From: a virus
Virus record (IMG/VR): IMGVR_UViG_3300048918_000310
Span: 1 to 48,193 of that record
Length of the DNA: 48,193 nucleotides
Reading direction: 5' to 3' (one strand)
Position numbers and translations under genes: made by a program. Under the pieces are notes generated by a model. That model was not told the origin of the DNA, did not search any database, and saw only the letters and a program-made list of their open reading frames with translations. Positions 1 to 48,193 of the stretch are shown here, piece after piece (positions within the stretch are counted from its first letter, which is position 1; every line of letters starts with the position of its first letter).

Positions 1-127
1 TCCCTGGCGGTATGTGGTACAGAAGCATAAGAAGGGATATAAGGTTTACGAATAAAATCAAGCTTATGATAAAACGCATAGTGTATACAAGCGACATAAA
101 CGTAAAAGTTGGCCAAGAGAAAATTGC
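1..127. repeat. Contig-end direct repeat (copy 1). It is identical to 48067-48193, implying a circular or circularly permuted genome of ~48,066 bp. Bases 1-55 duplicate the 3' end of terL.
   Basis: Read directly: tccctggcggtatgtggtacagaagc...ggccaagagaaaattgc occurs at both ends. The terL stop (taa) falls at 53-55 in the copy. Confidence 0.95.
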
Positions 128-10493: not shown

Positions 10494-13400
10494 TTATATT
10501 GACCGGGCAGCCATAAAAGCTGACACGGATTTCTTTCTATCCCAAATAAAGACTGTTTTTGAAGCCTATACCAATCTTGGTAACACCAAGACGAATCTGT
10601 CATTTGCTGATGGCGTCAAAAACACTACAAATGGAATCAGTCAGTTAAATGAAGCATTAAAAGAAACTACTACAATATCTAAGGAGGCATCCAAGGCGAC
10701 TGCAGAAGAAGCTAAAATTCTTGCCCTTGCAGCTAAAGCGGCAAAGGATGCAGCAGCAGAAAAGAAACTACTTGCACAGGCGGCTGCAGCAGAGGCAAAA
10801 GCGAGCGCAGAAAATGCTAAGGTAAAAGCTGAGGAAGCTAAAGCGTTAAAGGAGCTTTACAACGCGGAAAAAGCCGAGGCATCATCTTTAAAAGAACTTG
10901 CGCAAGTTGAAAAGCTGGAAGCTCAAACCAGAAAAGAAAACGCTGCAGCGGCTTTAAAAGAACAACAGCTGAGCGGGCGCAAGGAAGATAAATCCACTAA
11001 CGACATTCCCTACACTAATAATCTCGCTGAGTTAGAGGCCGAACAAGCGGCGGCCTTAAAAACCGGAGAGGTTGTTGCTGATTTAGAGAAAGCCCAATTG
11101 GATGCCCAATTGGCCGCATCTGAATGGGCTGCATCCCAGAAAAAAGCATCTGCTGACACAACCGCAGCGAACCAATTAACAAAAAAAGCTGAACTGGATA
11201 ATTATGATCTTCTACTGGATAGAAAGGCTGAATTAAAGAATAACACAGATCAACAAAAAGAGTATGCAAGACAGTTAAAAGAAGGTGAAATAAGCCTAGG
11301 AACTTACAATGAAAAAGTTAAGCAATTAATTATTCAGGAGAAAGAGCTTAAATACTCCATTGGTCAGATAAACGCTGACATTAAGAACCAGACAAAATTA
11401 GATTTTGCGACACCCGGGTCTAAAGCCGAAGCTGAGGCAAATAATATCATTCTCAGAAAAGAACGGGATGCTACTGACGTAAACGATGTTGAACGTATTG
11501 CCGAACTCAATCGCCTTATTGACGAAAACAACAAGTTGATCGATGAGAATAGCGATAAGTTAGGTAGGCAAAAAATAAACATTGGTAACTATCCTACGGC
11601 TTTCGCTGGCGCCTTCAAGTTCCTGAATGATGAACTGGCATCTGTAGAAGGGAAGCTGGCCGGTCCCGGTTTAAGTGGCAAGGAAATTGAAAACCTATCG
11701 GTAAAACAAGAGGCCTTACGGAATGCTACTGCCCTTGTTGGTAAAGAATTCAGTTCAACAACCGCCCAACAAAACGCATTTAAGGAAGCCGCCACACAAA
11801 TCGGTTTAGTCTTTGGAAAGGACAGCGAAACATTTAAACAGTTCAATAGTCAGGTACAAGCCGGTAAAGCTGAATTGGATAGTGTGAAGGGTGCCATGAC
11901 CGGAGCAGAGGCGGCAGGCAACAAGTTCGGCAAGGCATTAGGTGGTATATGGAGTGGTATACGGCAAATTGCTTATGCAATACCTGGAATAGGACTAGCA
12001 GGATTGGTAGGGTTGCTATTAACACCATTAGAAGCAATAGGTAAATCATTTTTCACATTTGCAAGAAATACAGATTCCGCAAAAAAGGCCACAGATGAAT
12101 TTGTAAAATCACTTGAAACAGAAGGAACAATATTCGATGAAGCAAAAGGTAAATACAGTGATGTAGCTGCCAATGTTGCTGAGTTAAAAGAAGATGTTTT
12201 ACTTGCTAAACAAGGCTTTATTGACAAAGACTTGGTAGTAAAGCAGTATAATGAAACAATGGGCAAGACTGTCGGAACCGTTAAAGATCTGGATCAGGTT
12301 GAACAACAGTTGGTACAGAACGGTGAAGCATATATTAAATTCACTCTGTTTAAAGCAGCTGCCCAAGTTGCGTATCAAAAAGCGGCTGAAAAGGCATTTG
12401 AAGCTGAACAAACTAGACGGAAAAAAGAAATAGAATTTCAAAATCTTGGTGACAAGGCCCTTTCTGGTGATGAAGGCTTTTTTTCCTCTGCCGCTCCAAG
12501 TAGATCACAAGTTGAAACACAAAGATATATAACCGAACAGCAGAAAAAGAGACGACAAACACAGGTTGATGCGGCTGAAAAGGAAAAAAAGGAGTTGCAG
12601 GACATTGCTGATAAATTTGAGAAAGACGCTGCTGAGATTTCCAAAAAATTTCACTTTAATTTCTTCGGTAACGGTAAAGAAGATACCGCACTTAAAGAAT
12701 ATTTAAAAAAGTTCTTCGATCAGGAATTAAAAGCACAGCAGGATGCCTATACAAGAATTTCCCAATCGGATACAGTTTACTTGGACACCCGCCTGGAAGC
12801 CAGGAAAAGAGCTTATGAGTTCGAGTTTCAAATCATTGAGGGCCAGAAGAACTATGAACTGGCCGTTGAGAAAAACAAGCTGGATTCTGTTATTAATAAT
12901 GCAAAAGCCACAAAAAACGAAAAAATAAACGCCCGGCGTGAATATGCTACTCGTATTGCTGAGATCGACGAAAGGGTAGATTTTCAGGAAAAAGAAGCTG
13001 CCCGAAAGCTTTCTATTGACCTCGGTGTGATCCGCAGAAAGCAGGTCGATGATGATATTGCACTCATAAAAAAAGAACAGGAAGAAATTGCAGAGCTTGA
13101 CAAAAAGAAGCTGGAAGCCGAATTAAAAGCCGAGCAGGACCGTATTAAACGCCGGCAGGATCAGGATGCTATCAACCAGGACACCGAACTACGTGTACTG
13201 GATTTGGAGTATCAGAAAAAATTAATCAGTGAGGAAGAATATCAGAAGAAAAAGTTTCAGATTGAAAGATACTACTCGCTTAAATCACAGACTGATACCA
13301 TTGCTGACCTTGAAAGGCAGATTCAAAGGGCAAAAAATGACGGTAAAGATACACTGGACCTGGAAAGAAAGATTGCAGATGAGAAAAAGAAAATTGATGA

Positions 13401-26820: not shown

Positions 26821-28200
26821 TTATCCAGCGAACGATGTTTTGAGCCCCTTTACTTTGTTATGCTCTCGTTTATCGTTATCCACATCGTATATCTTCCTCA
26901 CCATGGCGCCCGAGGTATGGGAGTTGTGTTCGGCGGCTGCCATCACAGGGTCAAAGGATAGTTCCGCCTTCAGTTTCTCCAACTCATTTATAACCTCAGT
27001 TGTGTGCAGGTGCTTCAGGTCGTATTGTCGTGAGTCTATTCCGAGTTTCTTTTTTATGTGTACCCGCCACCTACGGCCTACCTGTTCCGGGCGAATAGGT
27101 TTTGGTCCAGGTAAAAGACCTTTGCTGAATACATAGTCATCAGGACCGCAACCGGCCATAATTTCAACCCAATAGGGAAGTGCTACGTCCTTAATGGTTT
27201 TCCAAACCCACACCCATTTCTTTCTTTTTTTGATAAGCACTTTGAACCGCTGGCCGGCCAGGTCCACGTTTTTGCCCTGGACCTTCATGATCTCTTTAAT
27301 GCGGGCCCCCGAGTGGTAGAATATGTTTAGGTATCGTAGGTAGTCGGGGAAGTCGACTATCAGGCTTAAATGTATTTTACGGCGCTCTTCCGGGGTGAGC
27401 ACTTTTCTTTTCACCTGGTCGGGATCTTCTATTGAAGTATCTTTTTTGGAAATCTTTTTGATCGGGTTATATTCTACGATCTCCTGGCGATCCAGTTCGC
27501 TGTAAAGAATGCTGAGGTATTTCTTAAAATTATTAAATTCGTTTTCGTTCCATACTTTCGGGGATACGATTTCGATTTTAACCGGCACCATTTTGCCATT
27601 TACGCAATGCTTTTCTGTCCGCAATTTGCCGGCCACTTCAACCCTTTTGTTTTTAGTCCTGGTAACTGTTAAGTTCTTGCAATTGTCCAGGATTAGCTTT
27701 ATGTCTCTGGCTTTAATTTGAGCCAGGGGTACAGTGTTTTTCTTTAAGAGAATCGCGGATTGTTCTACAAATCTTAATACTTTTTCTATACAACGGCTGG
27801 TATCCCGCTCAAAGGTAAGTTCACTGTATATTGTTTTCAGTGCCTGGATAAATGGGGTGGTGGGCGAAAGGTCTTGTTTGGCGGCATCCAAAACTACCGG
27901 CTCGGGAGGTGCCATATATGCCCCGGTAATCGGGTTGTAGCCCTTCGCGTCGATCTTGTTTTTTTCCCGGTCAATAAAGGCCCTGGTGATTGCCTGACGC
28001 TCTTCAAGCCCGGCAACATGATTCATGCCCAGGATCTTTATTTGTTTCCCTTTTTTTAGTTTGGGATTATTGGCGAATGCAGGATCATAAAAGCGGTAAT
28101 TGATCCGCCAAGGTTTTACAGTACTGGCTTTTTTAGTATTCCAGTTTGCTGGCTTCACCGTGATCTCTGAACGGTAACAGCCATTGAATGTAGTAATCAT
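26821..28200 (-). CDS. int: Tyrosine recombinase (phage integrase)
   Basis: 459 aa. The C-terminal catalytic region has HSGARIKE, DLKHLHTT and HNSHTSGAMVRKIY (Tyr nucleophile context). It is adjacent to a tRNA-fragment attP. Confidence 0.9.
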   Translation of the reverse strand: MITTFNGCYRSEITVKPANWNTKKASTVKPWRINYRFYDPAFANNPKLKKGKQIKILGMNHVAGLEERQAITRAFIDREKNKIDAKGYNPITGAYMAPPEPVVLDAAKQDLSPTTPFIQALKTIYSELTFERDTSRCIEKVLRFVEQSAILLKKNTVPLAQIKARDIKLILDNCKNLTVTRTKNKRVEVAGKLRTEKHCVNGKMVPVKIEIVSPKVWNENEFNNFKKYLSILYSELDRQEIVEYNPIKKISKKDTSIEDPDQVKRKVLTPEERRKIHLSLIVDFPDYLRYLNIFYHSGARIKEIMKVQGKNVDLAGQRFKVLIKKRKKWVWVWKTIKDVALPYWVEIMAGCGPDDYVFSKGLLPGPKPIRPEQVGRRWRVHIKKKLGIDSRQYDLKHLHTTEVINELEKLKAELSFDPVMAAAEHNSHTSGAMVRKIYDVDNDKREHNKVKGLKTSFAG

Positions 28201-31134: not shown

Positions 31135-31509
31135 ATGAACCCTACTTTCTACATCCATGTAGCGATTAGTACTGTCATTATCATCGTGTTTGCTTTACTA
31201 CTCGGTACTCATTCTTTCAAACGGAAGAAACGCCTCAGTTTAGCTTTTGAACAACCATCACCAATGTGGTACGCATCTGAGTGCTTCATGTTTCTGAAGG
31301 CGACCATCCTTACCTGCAATACTCCCGATGAACTTAAAAAATGCAGGGGACAGGTGGAAATATTTTACGACCGGGAGTTTCGTGCGCCCATTACAAAATG
31401 TGAACGTAAAAAATATTACTCAAGGTTGCTGAAAGCTATAGTCGCAAAAGAAGACTCGTGGAATGCAAAGGTGCTTGACCCAAGCACAGAAGCTTTCTAC
31501 CACATGTAA
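31135..31509 (+). CDS. Small membrane protein (124 aa; start at MNPTFYI)
   Basis: N-terminal TM (VAISTVIIIVFALLLG). Confidence 0.45.
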   Translation: MNPTFYIHVAISTVIIIVFALLLGTHSFKRKKRLSLAFEQPSPMWYASECFMFLKATILTCNTPDELKKCRGQVEIFYDREFRAPITKCERKKYYSRLLKAIVAKEDSWNAKVLDPSTEAFYHM

Positions 31510-31654
31510 TTACTAGTTAAAGGGTACGATCAATAATAACCGCCCTGTTTCCACAGGTCGGTTTCTTAAAAAGTTATTTAGGGTTATGGAGGGATCGCCG
31601 GTGGCGCCATGCTGCCGGCACTTTTTACCGGAATCAAAACTCAACAATAAAGAA

Positions 31655-32110
31655 ATGAAACAACTACAGATCAGCGACACGCTGGCCCGGAAACTCTATC
31701 CCGCTGCGGATAGTGAATTTAGACAATTGCTGGAAGAAAACTTTGGCAAACCGTTTTTCTACGGAAAAATCACCGACCGGATCAAAACCTTCAAGGACGC
31801 TTGCGAGGTGGTGGGCCTTCAACCGACTGAAATTACCTGCTCATATGACTCCGCAGATGATCAGGCGTATAAAAAATTAAAGGTAGTTATTGCTGCCCTT
31901 AATGAGGGTTGGACACCTGACTGGAAGAATGACGATCAACCCAAGTATTACCCCTGGTTTGATATGAGTAATGGCTTCCGTCTCGTCAGCGTGGGTTACA
32001 GCTGCGCCCTCTCGAACGTCGGCTCCCGCCTTTGCTTCAAATCGCGCGAACTGGCTCAATACGCGGCCACGCAATTTGCAGATCTGTACAAAGATTTTTT
32101 CACCCTCTAA
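31655..32110 (+). CDS. DGR target protein 1 (151 aa; start at MKQLQIS) carrying VR1 near the C-terminus
   Basis: Paralogue of target 2, sharing NEGW-PDW-DD-KYYPWFD...GFRL...VGSRLCFKSR. Contains VR1. Confidence 0.8.
   Translation: MKQLQISDTLARKLYPAADSEFRQLLEENFGKPFFYGKITDRIKTFKDACEVVGLQPTEITCSYDSADDQAYKKLKVVIAALNEGWTPDWKNDDQPKYYPWFDMSNGFRLVSVGYSCALSNVGSRLCFKSRELAQYAATQFADLYKDFFTL
31972..32033 (+). repeat. DGR variable repeat 1 (VR1)
   Basis: 62-bp alignment to the TR with 12 mismatches, all at TR adenines. Confidence 0.85.
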
Positions 32111-32125
32111 CCTTCACCATTGACA

Positions 32126-32500
32126 ATGGAACAAATTAAAACATTTGAAGACGCTTGCAAGGTTCTGAACCTTGACCCTGTAAAGGTATTGCCTGATGTA
32201 TCTGCTTTTCCTCCAACGCACCAGGCCGCTTTGACTGCAGCCGGTAAATTGTTCATCATCGCTGATGCACTGAATGAAGGTTGGAAACCTGATTGGAACG
32301 ATGACGATGAATATAAGTATTACCCCTGGTTCGATCTGGAGAAAGACAAGAATAACCCGTCTGGCTTCCGTCTCTTCGGCGTGTTTTGCAACTGCACCGA
32401 CTCGAGCGTCGGCTCCCGCCTTTGCTTCAAAAGCCGGGATATAGCCGAGTACGCAGGTACTCAGTTCGTTGATCTGTATCGTGACCTGATGGTCATATAA
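32126..32500 (+). CDS. DGR target protein 2 (124 aa from ATG 32126) carrying VR2
   Basis: Tandem paralogue of target 1. Contains VR2. Confidence 0.8.
   Translation: MEQIKTFEDACKVLNLDPVKVLPDVSAFPPTHQAALTAAGKLFIIADALNEGWKPDWNDDDEYKYYPWFDLEKDKNNPSGFRLFGVFCNCTDSSVGSRLCFKSRDIAEYAGTQFVDLYRDLMVI
32359..32423 (+). repeat. DGR variable repeat 2 (VR2)
   Basis: 65-bp alignment to the TR with 12 mismatches, all at TR adenines. Confidence 0.85.
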
Positions 32501-32541
32501 CATAAACTGGTTGTGCATTGCGCCGACTGCCGTTTGTCCGT

Positions 32542-32606
32542 GTCTGGCTTCCGTCTCAACAACGTGAATTACAACTACACCAACTCGAACGTCAGCTCCC
32601 ACCTTT
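32542..32606 (+). repeat. DGR template repeat (TR), non-coding, rich in AAC/AAT/TAC codons
   Basis: gtctggcttccgtctcaacaacgtgaattacaactacaccaactcgaacgtcagctcccaccttt. It lies between target 2 and the RT. Confidence 0.85.
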
Positions 32607-32707
32607 CCTAACATAGTGATGCAGACCATGGCTCTTGCCAAAAAATGATTCTTAAAAAACGGAGCGCTGGTACCTACGGGGAACGCGATCCGTCGAAGCA
32701 AAGGCAT

Positions 32708-33679
32708 ATGAAACGAATTAATAACCTGTACGAACAAATTATAAGCGTAGACAACCTGATGCTGGCCGACAAAAAGGCCCGTAAACGGAAGTCTGCCCAG
32801 TACGGTATACAGGTTCATGACCGCTATCGGGAAAAAAACATTGATAGGTTACACAATATGCTTTTGAACAAGACCTACCAAACATCACCCTACCACATAT
32901 TCAAGATTTACGAACCCAAAGAACGTGAAGTCTACCGCTTACCCTATTTCCCGGACCGGATTACGCACCATGCGATATTGAACGTATTGGAGCCCGTTTT
33001 TATGTCCGTATTCACCGCAGATACATATAGCTGCATAAAAAAAAGAGGCATTCACGGCGCGGCTAATGCGGTTAAAAAAGCATTGAAAGATCAGGAAGGG
33101 ACAAAATATTGCCTGAAACTGGACATTAAAAAATTCTACCCTTCTATAGATCACGATGTACTGAAAGCACTATTGCGCAGGAAATTCAAAGATCAGGATC
33201 TCCTGTGGCTAATGGATGAAATTATCGACAGTGCATCCGGCCTCCCCATTGGAAACTACCTGAGTCAGTACCTGGCCAATTATTACCTCTCGTTCTTCGA
33301 TCATTGGCTGAAAGAAGTAAAGCTGGTAAGGTATTATTTCCGCTATGCCGATGACCTGGTGATCCTGTCAGCTAACAAGGGCGACCTGCATAGATTGTTG
33401 AAGGATATTCAATGGTATCTGCAAAGTCATTTAAAACTCAGTATAAAAGGCAATTACCAGGTGTTTCCGGTTGCCTCCCGTAGCATTGACTTTGTTGGTT
33501 ATCGACTTTATCATACGCATACACTTTTGCGAAAATCGATCAAAAAACGCTTTGCCCGCAAAATGGCAAAGAGCCCTAACGGTAAAAGTCTTGCCTCCTA
33601 TTGGGGCTGGGCAAAACACTGTAATAGCAATCATTTACTCAATAAACTACTTAAAAAACCTGCAGGGGGTATAAGGTAA
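32708..33679 (+). CDS. DGR-type reverse transcriptase (start at MKRINNLYEQI)
   Basis: RT motifs: LDIKKFYPSIDH (A), GLPIGNYLSQYLANYYL (B, with the DGR-typical [ILV]GxxxSQ) and FRYADDLVIL (C, YADD). About 323 aa, typical of DGR RTs. Confidence 0.9.
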   Translation: MKRINNLYEQIISVDNLMLADKKARKRKSAQYGIQVHDRYREKNIDRLHNMLLNKTYQTSPYHIFKIYEPKEREVYRLPYFPDRITHHAILNVLEPVFMSVFTADTYSCIKKRGIHGAANAVKKALKDQEGTKYCLKLDIKKFYPSIDHDVLKALLRRKFKDQDLLWLMDEIIDSASGLPIGNYLSQYLANYYLSFFDHWLKEVKLVRYYFRYADDLVILSANKGDLHRLLKDIQWYLQSHLKLSIKGNYQVFPVASRSIDFVGYRLYHTHTLLRKSIKKRFARKMAKSPNGKSLASYWGWAKHCNSNHLLNKLLKKPAGGIR

Positions 33680-33694
33680 CCTGCAATACTTTTT

Positions 33695-34102
33695 ATGGAT
33701 ATAAATGTAAAAGTTACAATCGATGCCGCCCCTGCATTCATGGCACTATTGCAGGGTTTATTATCCGCCGTACCAGCACCAGGTACGCCAACGCCTGCAC
33801 CGGTTAACAAACTTAAAAAGGCAGAAAAGCCTGCCGAGAAAGTTGCCGATCAGATGTCGGCACCTGCCGCTGAAACGCCAGCTGAACAAGCGTTGGAAGA
33901 CTTTCAGAAAGAACTGGATGCCGCAGTAGTTCCTTCTGTTACCATTGAACAGATCCGCGCTGAAATTCCCGGAGCTAAAGCAAAGGTAGGCGCCGATAAG
34001 GTGAAGGCATTGCTTACCAAATATGGTACGGCCAATGTAACCAACTTGCCCCTGGTCAATTACGATGCCTTTTACAATGAACTCAAAACCCTTGCAGCAT
34101 GA
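33695..34102 (+). CDS. Hypothetical protein with a Pro/Ala/Lys-rich linker (135 aa)
   Basis: ORF coupled by ATGA to the next gene. Confidence 0.5.
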   Translation: MDINVKVTIDAAPAFMALLQGLLSAVPAPGTPTPAPVNKLKKAEKPAEKVADQMSAPAAETPAEQALEDFQKELDAAVVPSVTIEQIRAEIPGAKAKVGADKVKALLTKYGTANVTNLPLVNYDAFYNELKTLAA

Positions 34103-38253: not shown

Positions 38254-38994
38254 ATGAATAATAGACGCTACAGAACTGACGAGAATGGAAATTTAACCAT
38301 GTGCACACCGGCACAGGACGTAATTATAAAACGTGACTTTTTGCTGGTCCCTGTTAAAAGGCTTGCAGAAAGTCTGAAAATGAGTCACACCCGTTTAAAA
38401 AAGCGTATGGCTCAGTTAGGCCTGGTCATACCTGCCGAGTTAGCAGCAAAGCGCAAATTTGAAAACCAAATGAAAGCGGGTGTAACTCCATGGAATAAGG
38501 GAAAGAAACTACCTGCGCATGTGTACAATGCGATTAAGAAGTCAATGTTCAAAAAAGGCCATCTGCCTCATAATGCAGTTGGTTTTAAGGATGGTGATCT
38601 GAGCTTCAGAAAGGATACCAAAACAGGGATATTGTATGTATACATCAGGTTGACCCTGGGTAAGTGGTACCCATTACACCAATATGCCTGGGAGTGCACA
38701 CACGGTAAAGTCTCAAAAGGTTATTGCATCAGTTTTAAGGACGGCGATTCCATGAACTGTACTGTTGAGAATTTGGAATTAATTACCAGGGGCAACAATA
38801 TGAAACGTAATTCCTGTTCTGTTCGCTTAACTGACAGTTATGTGGCCCAAACCCTTGCACGCAAAAAAGGTGGTGTCGGATTGGTCGATTTCCAGCTAAA
38901 GGAAACCATCATGCAAAACAAACCTCTTATCGAGTTGAAACGCAAATCGCTAATTCTAAAAAGAACCATCGATGAACGCCAAAAAGCTAAATAA
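38254..38994 (+). CDS. HNH homing-type endonuclease
   Basis: HQYAWECTHGKVSKGYCISFKDGDSMNCTVENLELITRGNNMKRN resembles the HNH_3 pattern. Confidence 0.7.
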   Translation: MNNRRYRTDENGNLTMCTPAQDVIIKRDFLLVPVKRLAESLKMSHTRLKKRMAQLGLVIPAELAAKRKFENQMKAGVTPWNKGKKLPAHVYNAIKKSMFKKGHLPHNAVGFKDGDLSFRKDTKTGILYVYIRLTLGKWYPLHQYAWECTHGKVSKGYCISFKDGDSMNCTVENLELITRGNNMKRNSCSVRLTDSYVAQTLARKKGGVGLVDFQLKETIMQNKPLIELKRKSLILKRTIDERQKAK

Positions 38995-46790: not shown

Positions 46791-48121
46791 TCGAGGTCCA
46801 GGCGTTAGATCCGTTCAAAGTACTTTACAACCTTCCTCCTGATGTAAACATCGTAGTAGCGATAGGAGGAAGGGGAGGGGCAAAAACCTACGAGGTAAGC
46901 AAGTACATAGCTTTCAGTGCTACGATCAAAAAGAAGCGGTGTGTTGTACTGCGCGATGAAAAGGAGCTGGTGCGTGAATCGATCCTGAATGAGGTGCTAT
47001 TACGGTATGACACAGCCAATGAATCAGGCGCTTTATCTGGCCATTATGATCGCCTGGACACTGGGATCAAGGAAAAGCAAACCGGCGAAATGCTGGTCTT
47101 TACAAAAGGTTTCCGGGCCAGCGACAGCACGAAGAAAGCAAACCTTAAATCCATATCCAACATCGATATAGCGGTGGTTGAGGAAGCAGAGGACATACGC
47201 GATGAAGAAAAGTTCAACACCTTCGCCGATTCAATCCGTAAGGAGGGCTCTTTGATAATCATTATCCTGAACACGCCGGATATTCAGCACTGGATCATTA
47301 AAAGGTATTTCAATCTGAAGCCGGTAGTGATTAACGGGAAAGTGAAGGATGGGTTTTTTGAAATAACGCCGAAGCAGATTAAAGGGTTTCTGTGCATTCA
47401 GACCAGCTTTGAAGATAACCCACATCTGCCGAAACATATCGTTGACAACTATCGCGGATATGGTGACCCTAACAGCCACCTGTACAAAGAGTTTTACTAC
47501 CTGACTGCGATTAAGGGATATGCAAGTACGGGCAGGAAAGGGCAAATATTGACAAAGTGCAAACCTATAAAGCTGGCTGACTACCTAAAGTTGCCGTTTA
47601 AAGAGTACTACGGCCAGGATTTCGGTACCGCTTCCCCGGCCGGCATGGTTGGGGTAAAGTTCGACAAGAACCGGGTTTATGCCCGGCAGCTGAATTATAA
47701 GCCGCTGAGTACACTGGACATTGCCAGGATGTATTGTACGATGCGGTTAACGGACAGTGACGAGATAGTTGCCGATAGTGCGGAGCCGAAAAGTATCAGC
47801 AAGCTGAAGAATGGTTACCGGGGGGAGGAACTGGCAACGGAAGACTTTATCAAGTTTACCCGCCTGGCAGTAGGGTTCAATGTCAAAGCGGCTGATAAGG
47901 GGCAGGACAGCGTGAGGAACGGGCTCGATCTGTTAGATTCACTGGATCTTTATGTGGTTGAAGAGTCAACGGACTTCTGGAATGAGATATACAACTACAT
48001 CTGGGAAGTGGACAAGAACGGCAATCCGACTGGTGAACCGATAGACGAATTTAACCACCTTATTGATCCCTGGCGGTATGTGGTACAGAAGCATAAGAAG
48101 GGATATAAGGTTTACGAATAA
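46787..48121 (+). CDS. terL: Terminase large subunit
   Basis: Walker A-like VAIGGRGGAKTYE, Walker B VVEEAED, and a C-terminal nuclease region. 444 aa. Confidence 0.9.
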   Translation: MIEVQALDPFKVLYNLPPDVNIVVAIGGRGGAKTYEVSKYIAFSATIKKKRCVVLRDEKELVRESILNEVLLRYDTANESGALSGHYDRLDTGIKEKQTGEMLVFTKGFRASDSTKKANLKSISNIDIAVVEEAEDIRDEEKFNTFADSIRKEGSLIIIILNTPDIQHWIIKRYFNLKPVVINGKVKDGFFEITPKQIKGFLCIQTSFEDNPHLPKHIVDNYRGYGDPNSHLYKEFYYLTAIKGYASTGRKGQILTKCKPIKLADYLKLPFKEYYGQDFGTASPAGMVGVKFDKNRVYARQLNYKPLSTLDIARMYCTMRLTDSDEIVADSAEPKSISKLKNGYRGEELATEDFIKFTRLAVGFNVKAADKGQDSVRNGLDLLDSLDLYVVEESTDFWNEIYNYIWEVDKNGNPTGEPIDEFNHLIDPWRYVVQKHKKGYKVYE

Positions 48122-48193
48122 AATCAAGCTTATGATAAAACGCATAGTGTATACAAGCGACATAAACGTAAAAGTTGGCCAAGAGAAAATTGC
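48067..48193. repeat. Contig-end direct repeat (copy 2)
   Basis: Exact 127-bp match to 1-127. Confidence 0.95.

What the first reader, a model, noticed from the sequence alone, without database searches (positions are those of the whole stretch)
31972..33679. Complete DGR: one template repeat, two adenine-mutagenised variable repeats and a DGR-type reverse transcriptase
I aligned TR 32545-32606 by hand against VR1 31972-32033 and VR2 32362-32423.

- The 62-bp block of the TR contains 17 adenines.
- VR1 and VR2 each differ from the TR at 12 positions. All 24 differences fall on TR adenines.
- All 45 non-adenine columns are identical in the three copies.
- VR1 and VR2 differ from each other only in TR-adenine columns, so each has been rewritten independently.
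- In the VR reading frame the TR reads SGFRL-NNVNYNYTNSNVS, i.e. AAC/AAT/TAC codons, which is the usual DGR design.
- Homology ends at a G/C-rich IMH-like element. Both VRs read ggctcccgcctttgc and the TR reads agctcccacctttcc. The first non-adenine mismatch is at TR 32607.
- About 100 nt downstream an RT gene begins, with the DGR-typical motif IGNYLSQ and a YADD catalytic box.
Basis: partly seen in the sequence, partly recalled or inferred. Interest (0 to 1): 0.9.

Follow-up and report, generated by a model that had tools for sequence, protein, structure and literature searches.

The report
Phage DGR diversifying two small proteins
This is a genuine, intact-looking diversity-generating retroelement in a complete 48-kb Bacteroidota phage genome that rewrites a 9-codon patch in two small early-gene proteins; the element type is already catalogued, so it is a good example rather than a discovery, although what the two diversified proteins do is still unknown.

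Summary
TR 32545-32606 has 17 adenines. VR1 and VR2 each differ from it at 12 positions, all 24 on TR adenines, and the 45 other columns are identical (P about 3e-9 per VR).

- **RT:** the RT (32708-33679) is 70% identical to a curated reference DGR RT. Its best solved relative is the Bordetella phage BPP-1 DGR RT.
- **Spacer:** the 101-nt TR-RT spacer is a structured RNA of the Rfam RT-17 type, with strong covariation support.
- **No Avd:** none is found, which matches this lineage.
- **Targets:** two tandem paralogues of 151 and 124 aa, acidic, without signal peptide, sitting among early and replication genes. The VR is internal.
- **Already catalogued:** the targets are Roux 2021 cluster PC_00007 ("Phage_other", DGR clade 1). 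Wu 2018 references t120/t121 are the same type.
- **Related loci:** in 161 loci, 276 TR/VR pairs show 3,219 adenine mismatches against 34 others.
- **Fold:** AlphaFold models of both targets match no solved structure, C-type lectin DGR proteins included.

Verdict: a real DGR and a new member of a known kind. Target function, and whether the element is active now, remain open.

The parts
31597..31619 (+). Terminator-like G+C-rich hairpin followed by a T-run, just upstream of target 1. It may separate the cassette from the upstream genes.
   Evidence: Consensus scan only. It lies inside the longest ORF call (31586-), which argues for the 31655 start of target 1.
31655..32110 (+). Target gene 1 (T1, 151 aa from ATG 31655; the longest ORF starts at 31586). 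PC_00007-family protein with an N-terminal helical extension.
   Evidence: ORF. phrog_11581, E=4e-28. 52% identical to T2. Homologues start MK.LQIS. AF2 model pLDDT 84.
31972..32033 (+). VR1: variable repeat inside T1, encoding NGFRLVSVGYSCALSNVGSRL.
   Evidence: 12 differences from the TR, all at TR adenines, and none at 45 other columns.
32021..32035 (+). IMH of VR1 (GGCTCCCGCCTTTGC), lying within coding sequence (GSRLC).
   Evidence: Differs from the TR's IMH* at 32594, 32601 and 32607 equivalents. The same G-for-A pattern occurs in all related loci inspected.
32126..32500 (+). Target gene 2 (T2, 124 aa, pI 4.6). PC_00007-family protein.
   Evidence: ORF. phrog_11581, E=2.5e-29. 1,628 homologue clusters. 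AF2 model pLDDT 93.7. 44% identical to the Wu t121 target.
32362..32423 (+). VR2: variable repeat inside T2 (homology to the TR starts at 32359), encoding SGFRLFGVFCNCTDSSVGSRL.
   Evidence: 12 differences from the TR, all at TR adenines. It differs from VR1 at 10 TR-A columns.
32411..32425 (+). IMH of VR2 (GGCTCCCGCCTTTGC).
   Evidence: This IMH can pair with 32433-32445 in a DNA hairpin (z=-2.6), but no equivalent exists at VR1.
32545..32606 (+). Template repeat (TR), intergenic. It has 15 mutable adenines in six AAY, two TAC and one ACC codons. Homology to VR2 starts at 32542.
   Evidence: In the VR frame it ends in a stop codon, so it is not part of a gene.
32594..32608 (+). IMH* of the TR (AGCTCCCACCTTTCC).
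32624..32711 (+). [quoted passage not shown] P1 is 32629-32632/32637-32640. P2 is 32661-32663/32689-32691 plus 32666-32667/32685-32686. P3 is 32673-32674/32679-32680.
   Evidence: RF03020 scores 29.5 bits here, below the gathering score of 40.4. It scores 41.6-44 bits at the same place in L012, L022 and L083. All 11 pairs have compensatory changes; 95.3% of cells are paired against 72.5% in shuffles and 35-47% with slid partners.
32708..33679 (+). DGR reverse transcriptase (323 aa). IGNYLSQ is at 33248-33268 and YADD at 33344-33355.
   Evidence: PF00078 and phrog_1423, E=5e-127. BPP-1 bRT 8ub7, E=2e-43. 70% identity to Wu reference DGR RT t121.

Best explanation
A diversity-generating retroelement of the Avd-less Bacteroidota-phage lineage, sitting in the early/replication region of a complete circular 48,066-bp temperate phage genome.

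**Shown**
- One 62-65 nt template repeat, two variable repeats in two tandem paralogous genes, a non-identical IMH/IMH* pair, a conserved structured RNA between TR and RT, and an intact DGR-clade RT.
- The cassette order (targets, TR, RT) is conserved in relatives.
- Variation across the family is confined to codons that carry adenines in the TR.

**Inferred by analogy with the Bordetella phage BPP-1 system**
- The TR plus spacer is transcribed.
- The RT binds the structured spacer, primes cDNA synthesis there, and copies the TR while misincorporating opposite adenines.
- The cDNA replaces the VR in either target gene, with the IMH setting the 3' boundary and 13-16 nt of A-free homology setting the 5' boundary.

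Each event rewrites nine codons (6 AAY, 2 TAC, 1 ACC). That allows about 7.3e8 protein variants per target on an otherwise conserved small acidic protein. The targets are not tail fibres. They are most likely soluble early proteins that act as a pair, with an unknown binding partner.
For: - **A-only TR/VR differences:**
- **RT identity:**
- **Cassette conservation:** 119 of 149 related loci with enough flank have the RT on the same strand, at 54-74% identity. The median gap from last target to RT is 223 nt.
- **Related loci:** 276 TR/VR pairs give 3,219 mismatches at TR-A (67% of A sites) against 34 at 12,300 non-A sites. The modal layout, two targets plus TR plus RT, occurs in 94 loci.
- **IMH/IMH* pattern** is conserved in all loci inspected.
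- **Spacer RNA covariation:**. RT-17 matches. Weinberg 2017 places the analogous RT-10 motif in the BPP-1 spacer.
- **Focal hypervariation:** identity at the nine mutable codons is 15% against 67% elsewhere, and 0-22% against 90-92% for the closest relatives.
- **Recency:** zero non-A differences at 90 non-A sites in the two VRs, an intact RT ORF, and undecayed AAY codons in the TR.
- **Early-gene context:**
- **No tail protein carries the VR or the GSRLCF motif:**
- **Natural fused two-domain proteins:**
Against: - No direct evidence of current activity. No near-identical genome or read set was available.
- No Avd, which is essential in the only biochemically studied DGR. The priming and fidelity details borrowed from BPP-1 may therefore not transfer.
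- avd genes are poorly conserved, so Pfam could miss one. The tight 200-285 nt gap in 110 of 119 loci excludes it only from its usual position.
- The window's own RT-17 match is below Rfam's gathering score.
- A hairpin 3' of the IMH is seen at VR2 only.
- The filter (at most 2 non-A mismatches) inflates the A-bias figure.
Confidence: 0.9

Rival explanations
1. A fossil DGR. The element diversified the two VRs in the past but is no longer active, for lack of an accessory factor or of expression.
For: - No Avd anywhere in the window.
- No population data were obtainable.
- Related phages exist that have lost exactly the TR-RT block yet keep diversified targets, so loss does occur.
Against: - The RT ORF is intact with all catalytic motifs, and the start codon and spacer RNA are conserved.
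- The TR keeps all AAY codons.
- The VRs show 0 substitutions at 90 non-A sites, which a decaying element would accumulate.
- Avd-less cassettes of this layout are the norm in 119 loci whose VRs are all A-diversified.
Confidence: 0.08
2. No retroelement is involved. The TR is a decayed fragment of a third paralogue, and the A-only pattern arises from chance or from ordinary divergence between paralogues.
For: T1 and T2 are paralogues (52% identity), so repeated sequence in this region is expected.
Against: - P is about 3e-9 per VR for an A-only pattern.
- Identity outside the 62-nt block drops abruptly.
- The same pattern recurs in 276 pairs from diverged loci.
- In another lineage, a TR predicted only from 'variable column = A' was found verbatim next to an RT.
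Confidence: 0.005
3. The RT belongs to another retroelement class (group II intron, retron or defence-associated RT), and its proximity to the repeats is coincidental.
For: Generic RT models from these classes match the shared RT domain.
Against: - Scores are far below the curated cut-offs. Group II scores 117 bits against 300, and the retron and Drt models fall further short.
- The BPP-1 DGR RT is the best solved relative by 23 orders of magnitude in E-value.
- 70% identity to a curated DGR RT.
- No group II or retron RNA family in the region at E up to 1.
- The fixed target-TR-RT synteny.
Confidence: 0.005

Closest known systems
Wu et al. 2018 (NAR, PMC5758913) reference DGRs t121 (AKZJ01000008.1) and t120 (NZ_AMSG01000002.1): VR class 'CLec3', cassettes without accessory genes (Architecture A, Lineage 3)
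   Same: - The RT is 70% identical to t121.
- The target is 44% identical over its full length.
- The same VR frame, GF..(about 11 variable residues)..VGSRL(C/V)F followed by a C-terminal helix.
- Tandem small targets, and no avd.
   Different: - A different phage and host lineage, with 30% RT divergence.
- The 'CLec3' label implies a C-type lectin fold. That could not be confirmed here for either paralogue.
Roux et al. 2021 (Nat Commun, PMC8144416): target protein cluster PC_00007, type 'Phage_other', DGR clade 1, viral, FCB-group hosts
   Same: - Members listed there (for example IMG genes 2595682133/34 and 2611844238/39) are the same family, with the same paired arrangement.
- The relative VR position there is 0.65-0.8.
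- In the window, the VR lies at about 0.7 of T2.
   Different: None of substance; the window is a further member. That paper gives no function or fold for the cluster, and it expects uncharacterised VR domains to be new C-type lectin variants.
Bordetella phage BPP-1 DGR (mtd-avd-TR-brt)
   Same: - Adenine-specific TR-to-VR transfer.
- IMH/IMH* logic.
- A structured spacer RNA between TR and RT (RT-10 there, RT-17-like here).
- RT homology, 8ub7 at E=2e-43.
   Different: - No Avd.
- The TR is 62-65 nt rather than 134 nt.
- Two targets instead of one.
- The targets are small early-region proteins, not a tail-fibre tip.
- The VR is internal, so the IMH is under coding constraint.
- There is no consistent inverted repeat after the IMH.
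- The target is not detectably a C-type lectin fold.
Quimbyvirus DGR (Benler et al. 2021, Microbiome, PMC8008677)
   Same: A Bacteroidota phage DGR with a hypervariable target outside the structural module. The authors interpret it as a non-structural protein involved in phage-host conflict.
   Different: - Quimbyvirus has one tail-associated and one remote target, and a frameshifted RT.
- Here both targets are non-structural, adjacent to the TR-RT, and the RT is a single ORF.
- Homology between the Quimbyvirus remote target and T1/T2 was not tested.
Rfam RF03020 RT-17 RNA motif (Weinberg et al. 2017, PMC5737381)
   Same: It matches the TR-RT spacer at or above the gathering score in three relatives and below threshold in the window, always at the same position and strand.
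   Different: The motif was published as 'near RT genes' without an assigned element. Here it is placed in a DGR spacer. The window copy scores 29.5 bits against the gathering score of 40.4.

Membership tests
Diversity-generating retroelement (DGR) | A TR/VR repeat pair whose differences fall on adenines of the TR | tested here: met
   24 of 24 differences fall on TR-A and 0 of 90 non-A sites differ. P=2.9e-9 per VR.
Diversity-generating retroelement (DGR) | An RT of the DGR clade with the (I/L)GxxxSQ motif and a YxDD box | tested here: met
   IGNYLSQ and YADD are present. 70% identity to curated DGR RT t121. The best PDB relative is BPP-1 bRT. No full phylogeny was built.
Diversity-generating retroelement (DGR) | The VR lies inside a protein-coding target gene, with adenines concentrated in AAY-type codons of the TR | tested here: met
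   Both VRs are in frame in T1 and T2. The TR has 6 AAY, 2 TAC and 1 ACC codons.
Diversity-generating retroelement (DGR) | An IMH at the 3' end of the VR with a non-identical IMH* in the TR | tested here: met
   GGCTCCCGCCTTTGC against AGCTCCCACCTTTCC. The same G/A pattern holds across loci. Its function in homing is not testable here.
Diversity-generating retroelement (DGR) | Demonstrated mutagenic retrohoming (VR change over time, or within a population) | not testable with these tools
   No reads are available and no near-identical genomes were found. In a related lineage, genomes at least 99% identical differ only in the VRs.
BPP-1-type DGR (canonical architecture) | An Avd accessory protein (PF05635-like four-helix bundle, basic) encoded between target and TR | tested here: not met
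   - No Pfam or NCBIfam match in any small ORF of the window.
- The TR starts 42-45 nt after the T2 stop.
- The target-to-RT gap is 200-285 nt in 110 of 119 relatives.
- The ORF after the RT is acidic and travels with DUF2800 rather than with the cassette.
BPP-1-type DGR (canonical architecture) | A target with a C-type lectin fold carrying the VR at its C-terminus | tested here: not met
   - About 25 residues follow the VR in both targets.
- The AF2 models (pLDDT 93.7 and 84.4) have no PDB hit at E up to 0.001; the best E-values are 3.3 and 0.8.
- The profile against PDB sequences gives nothing below E=0.28.
- Only Foldseek was used, so a very reduced C-type lectin relative cannot be excluded.
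Wu 2018 CLec3 / Lineage 3 and Roux 2021 clade 1 with PC_00007 targets | RT and target homologous to the catalogued references; VR ends in VGSRLCF; no avd | tested here: met
Group II intron | An RT/maturase reaching the family cut-off, plus intron RNA domains flanking the ORF | tested here: not met
   TIGR04416 scores 117.5 bits against a cut-off of 300. No group II RNA family in 31400-33000 at E up to 1.
Retron or defence-associated RT (Drt/UG) | An RT reaching the family cut-off, with msr/msd RNA or effector partners | tested here: not met
   All retron and Drt models score far below their cut-offs. PADLOC gives only generic RT-domain matches and nothing for the neighbouring genes.

The most novel reading that the evidence does not exclude
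The PC_00007 targets are not C-type lectin proteins. They would be a distinct small alpha/beta scaffold: a pair of acidic, cytoplasmic, early-expressed phage proteins, occasionally fused into one chain, that a DGR reprograms as an intracellular binder. Its purpose would be to neutralise variable host defence proteins or competing-phage proteins. This would extend DGR biology from receptor recognition on the outside of the cell to conflict inside it. It would also break the rule that DGR variable regions sit on C-type lectin folds.
Probability: 0.2. Interest if true: 0.75.

Novelty: new member of a known kind. Interest (0 to 1): 0.33.

Why it matters
As a DGR it adds one more clean example to a lineage that two large surveys have already catalogued. 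Its value is as a compact model, about 2 kb holding two targets, a TR, a spacer RNA and an RT with no accessory gene, for three open questions.

- How Avd-less DGRs prime and mutagenise.
- What the widespread PC_00007 phage proteins do. The profile search found about 4,300 representatives at 50% clustering.
- Whether DGR variable regions can sit on a scaffold other than the C-type lectin fold.

None of these is answered here. The evidence only sharpens them.

Tried and rejected
- **My own error.** The RT query was frame-shifted by one base (ATG is 32708, not 32709). Its RT counts (108 of 161, 28-42% identity) are wrong. One search exposed this and one search replaced the counts. The 'RT' flags are likewise superseded.
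- **Same phage with other VR content.** Three searches of the viral and metagenome collections, using an exact-flank pattern, the exact TR, and the A-masked core, found nothing. Current activity therefore could not be tested.
- **Function of the targets.** Pfam, NCBIfam, PADLOC and a profile search of PDB sequences gave no match. PHROGs gave only phrog_11581, 'unknown function'. Longer family members carry no extra Pfam domain; they are two-domain fusions.
- **C-type lectin relation.** hhalign against the C-terminus of a CLec3 tail-fibre target aligned only 14 residues around VGSRLCF. Foldseek found nothing for either paralogue.
- **Cruciform or hairpin after the IMH.** It is significant at VR2 only (z=-2.6) and absent at VR1 (z=+0.6), so I do not claim it as a feature.
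- **Conserved flanking genes as a functional clue.** The neighbours are not conserved across loci. Only the general early/replication context recurs.
- **'Family members without a DGR'.** I first read the RT-less loci as DGR-independent homologues and rejected that. Their VRs differ only at TR-A columns, and they are exact TR-RT deletion variants of DGR-bearing phages.
- **No further VR** of this TR exists elsewhere in the window, the tail genes included.
Full report
**1.

- VR1 (31972-32033) and VR2 (32362-32423) each differ from it at 12 positions. All 24 differences are at TR adenines and all 45 other columns are identical.
- An independent repeat finder returns the same three-copy family.
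- A pattern with N at the TR-adenine columns finds only these three copies in the 48-kb window and none in shuffles.
- The probability that 12 differences all fall on the 17 A of 62 positions is 2.9e-9 per VR.
- VR1 and VR2 differ from each other at 10 columns, all TR-A columns, so they were written independently.

I make three small corrections.
- Homology with VR2 begins 3 nt earlier (32542).
- The differences at TR 32594 and 32601 are A>G in both VRs and in every related locus inspected (TR GTCAGCTCNCACC against VR GTCGGCTCNCGCC). They therefore belong to the IMH/IMH* distinction, or encode obligate Gly and Arg. That leaves 15 mutable adenines, of which 10 are changed in each VR.
- The RT starts at ATG 32708, which is conserved as ATGAAA(A/C)G in 60 of 60 relatives. 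It does not start at the upstream in-frame ATG 32645.

**2. The reverse transcriptase is a DGR RT**

- It matches PF00078 and the phage RT family phrog_1423 at E=5e-127.
- Among solved structures, the Bordetella phage BPP-1 DGR RT is the best hit (8ub7, E=2e-43). Group II intron and retron RTs follow at about 1e-20.
- In NCBIfam it stays far below the curated cut-offs of the group II (117 bits against 300), retron and Drt models.
- It is 70% identical over 315 residues to reference DGR RT t121 of Wu et al. 2018. I took that sequence from the supplement of Roux et al. 2021.
- IGNYLSQ and YADD are present.

**3. The element sits in a complete phage genome**

- The first 127 nt of the window are repeated at its end, so the contig is a circular assembly of 48,066 bp.
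- It encodes small and large terminase, portal, capsid-type proteins, a tape-measure protein and large tail proteins.
- On the minus strand it encodes an integrase (26821-28200) and HTH regulators.
- A plus-strand early/replication block holds a DUF2800 PD-(D/E)XK exonuclease, an Enc34-type ssDNA-binding protein, a family-A DNA polymerase, a VapE-type primase and an SNF2 helicase.
- The DGR cassette lies at the head of that block. No tail gene carries the VR or the GSRLCF motif.

**4. The targets**

- T1 (31655-32110, 151 aa) and T2 (32126-32500, 124 aa) are paralogues at 52% identity.
- They have no Pfam, NCBIfam or PADLOC match. Their only family hit is phrog_11581, of unknown function.
- They are acidic: T2 has pI 4.6 and the family median is 4.9. 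They have no signal-peptide-like N-terminus.
- The family is large: 1,628 clusters at 90% identity and 4,278 representatives at 50%.
- In an alignment of 52 members the scaffold is conserved (F7, C11, K41, W57, K64, W68, R98 and L99 are invariant). Variability is concentrated between SGFR(L) and VGSRLCF.
- At the nine codons that carry mutable adenines, identity to T2 is 15%, against 67% elsewhere. For the closest relatives it is 0-22% against 90-92%.
- The VR is internal, with about 25 residues forming a C-terminal helix after it. The IMH therefore lies in coding sequence (GSRLC).
- Nine mutable codons (6 AAY, 2 TAC, 1 ACC) allow 15^6 x 4^3 = 7.3e8 protein variants per target.

**5. Fold**

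- AlphaFold2 with the family alignment gives a confident model of T2 (pLDDT 93.7, pTM 0.88). It has two N-terminal helices, a two-stranded beta element (64-70 and 82-89) whose second strand and following loop carry the VR, and a C-terminal helical pair.
- T1 gives the same core plus N-terminal helices (pLDDT 84.4).
- Neither model has any PDB match at E up to 0.001. The best E-values are 3.3 and 0.8, with TM-scores at or below 0.28.
- In BFVD the T2 model matches only uncharacterised phage proteins, including proteins of crAss-like viruses.
- A profile search of PDB sequences is empty.
- hhalign against the C-terminus of a CLec3 tail-fibre target aligns only the 14 residues around VGSRLCF.
- The C-type lectin fold, which the literature expects for DGR variable regions and which the 'CLec3' label implies, is therefore not detectable here. 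Foldseek is the only structural test I could run, so a strongly reduced lectin derivative is not excluded.

**6. Related loci**

I fetched 80 loci from Bacteroidota genomes (Niastella, Elizabethkingia, Flavobacterium, Pedobacter, Dyadobacter, Apibacter and others) and 80 from IMG/VR. My first RT scan used a frame-shifted query and is void. The corrected scan shows the following.
- The RT is present in 125 of 161 loci, and in 119 of the 149 with at least 1.5 kb downstream.
- It is always on the target strand, at 54-74% identity.
- The median gap between the last target and the RT is 223 nt, and it is 200-285 nt in 110 of 119 loci.

The gap holds the TR and the spacer and leaves no room for avd. 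Two tandem targets plus TR plus RT is the modal layout (94 loci). In 276 TR/VR pairs there are 3,219 mismatches at TR adenines (67% of A sites) and 34 at 12,300 other sites. The filter allowed at most 2 non-A mismatches, so the contrast is somewhat inflated.

Gene contexts from four further genomes place the cassette among early or replication genes in different backbones: between the SSB and PolA genes in a prophage, and after Mu Gam in a Mu-like phage. No PF05635 gene appears nearby.

**7. The TR-RT spacer is a structured RNA**

- Rfam RT-17 (RF03020) matches 32624-32711 at 29.5 bits, below the gathering score of 40.4. It matches the homologous spacer of L012, L022 and L083 at 41.6-44 bits.
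- On an alignment of 60 spacers, RNAalifold predicts three helices. All 11 pairs have compensatory changes.
- 95.3% of cells are paired, against 72.5% in shuffles (0 of 500 reach it) and 35-47% with slid partners.
- Weinberg et al. 2017 placed the RT-10 motif in the BPP-1 TR-RT spacer and guessed that other RT motifs serve other DGRs. RT-17 appears to be the one for this lineage.

**8. No accessory gene**

- No ORF of the window matches the Avd family.
- The ORF after the RT (33695-34102) is acidic and accompanies DUF2800 in relatives whose DGR cassette lies elsewhere.
- This agrees with Wu et al. 2018: 29% of DGRs lack accessory genes, and Lineage 3 'notably lacks avd'.

**9. Already known**

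- Searching the supplement of Roux et al. 2021 for the motif GSRLCF retrieved paired small proteins of this family. They are listed as DGR targets of cluster PC_00007, type 'Phage_other', DGR clade 1, viral, FCB hosts, with relative VR position 0.65-0.8.
- Wu's references t120 and t121 carry the same targets, labelled CLec3. T2 is 44% identical to the t121 target.
- Benler et al. 2021 had already drawn attention to a non-structural DGR target in a Bacteroidota phage.
- The window is therefore a new member of a described kind.

**10. Mechanism, with steps marked**

- **Shown:** the parts, their order, the adenine-restricted variation, the conserved RNA structure and the intact RT.
- **Inferred from BPP-1 biochemistry (Handa et al. 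2018, cited; own knowledge):** transcription of the TR plus spacer, RT binding and priming within the spacer, misincorporation opposite adenines, and cDNA replacement of the VR bounded by the IMH at the 3' end and by 13-16 nt of homology at the 5' end.
- **Unknown:** how the reaction proceeds without Avd, and what T1 and T2 bind.

The pairing of paralogues and the natural two-domain fusions suggest that T1 and T2 act together.

**11. Limits**

- There is no read data and no near-identical genome, so present-day activity is untested.
- No full RT phylogeny was built.
- The fold comparison used Foldseek only.
- Avd detection was by profile only.

Noticed in passing
L108 5927-7573 versus L130 5926/5927 (also L111 and L168-L174 versus L138, L139, L144, L149/L154, L151, L158): In a related phage lineage, genomes about 99% identical differ by presence or absence of a 1,647-nt block that holds exactly the TR and the RT. 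The RT-less genomes keep both target genes, and their VRs still differ from one another only at TR-adenine columns. A TR predicted from 'variable column = A' was found verbatim in 7 viral contigs next to an RT. Possible explanations are repeated loss after diversification, diversification in trans by a co-resident phage, or recombination.
   Followed up: partly
window 1-127 and 48067-48193: The first 127 nt are identical to the last 127 nt. The contig is therefore a circular assembly of a complete 48,066-bp phage genome, with the terminase genes at the window end continuing into the portal gene at its start.
   Followed up: yes
P0121, P0127, P0129 (proteins): Proteins of 250-350 aa contain two copies of the target domain, each with its own VR-like stretch. 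They are natural fusions of a T1-like and a T2-like unit. This hints that the tandem paralogues function together, although gene-calling read-through is not excluded.
   Followed up: partly
window 32645 versus 32708: The longest RT ORF starts at ATG 32645, but that codon lies inside the conserved spacer RNA just after helix P1. All relatives start at the conserved ATGAAA(A/C)G, equivalent to 32708. Automatic annotation would overextend the RT by 21 codons.
   Followed up: yes
window 32405-32445: The IMH of VR2 can pair with downstream coding sequence (GGCTCCCG...CGGGATATAGCC) in a DNA hairpin that is more stable than shuffles (z=-2.6). VR1 has no equivalent (z=+0.6).
   Followed up: partly
window 31597-31619: A strong terminator-like hairpin (10 pairs, 7 G-C, followed by a T-run) sits between the upstream membrane-protein gene (31135-31509) and T1, inside the longest T1 ORF call. 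The scan does not cover Bacteroidota-type promoters, so the cassette's promoter was not located.
   Followed up: no
window 38254-38994: An HNH endonuclease gene (PF13392) lies directly after the family-A DNA polymerase gene in the replication module. It may be a homing-endonuclease insertion.
   Followed up: no
BFVD hits A0A8S5QTH9, A0A8S5V6N7, A0A7M1S2L6: The T2 fold recurs as a domain of longer (190-300 aa) uncharacterised proteins of crAss-like phages. I did not check whether those copies are DGR targets.
   Followed up: no
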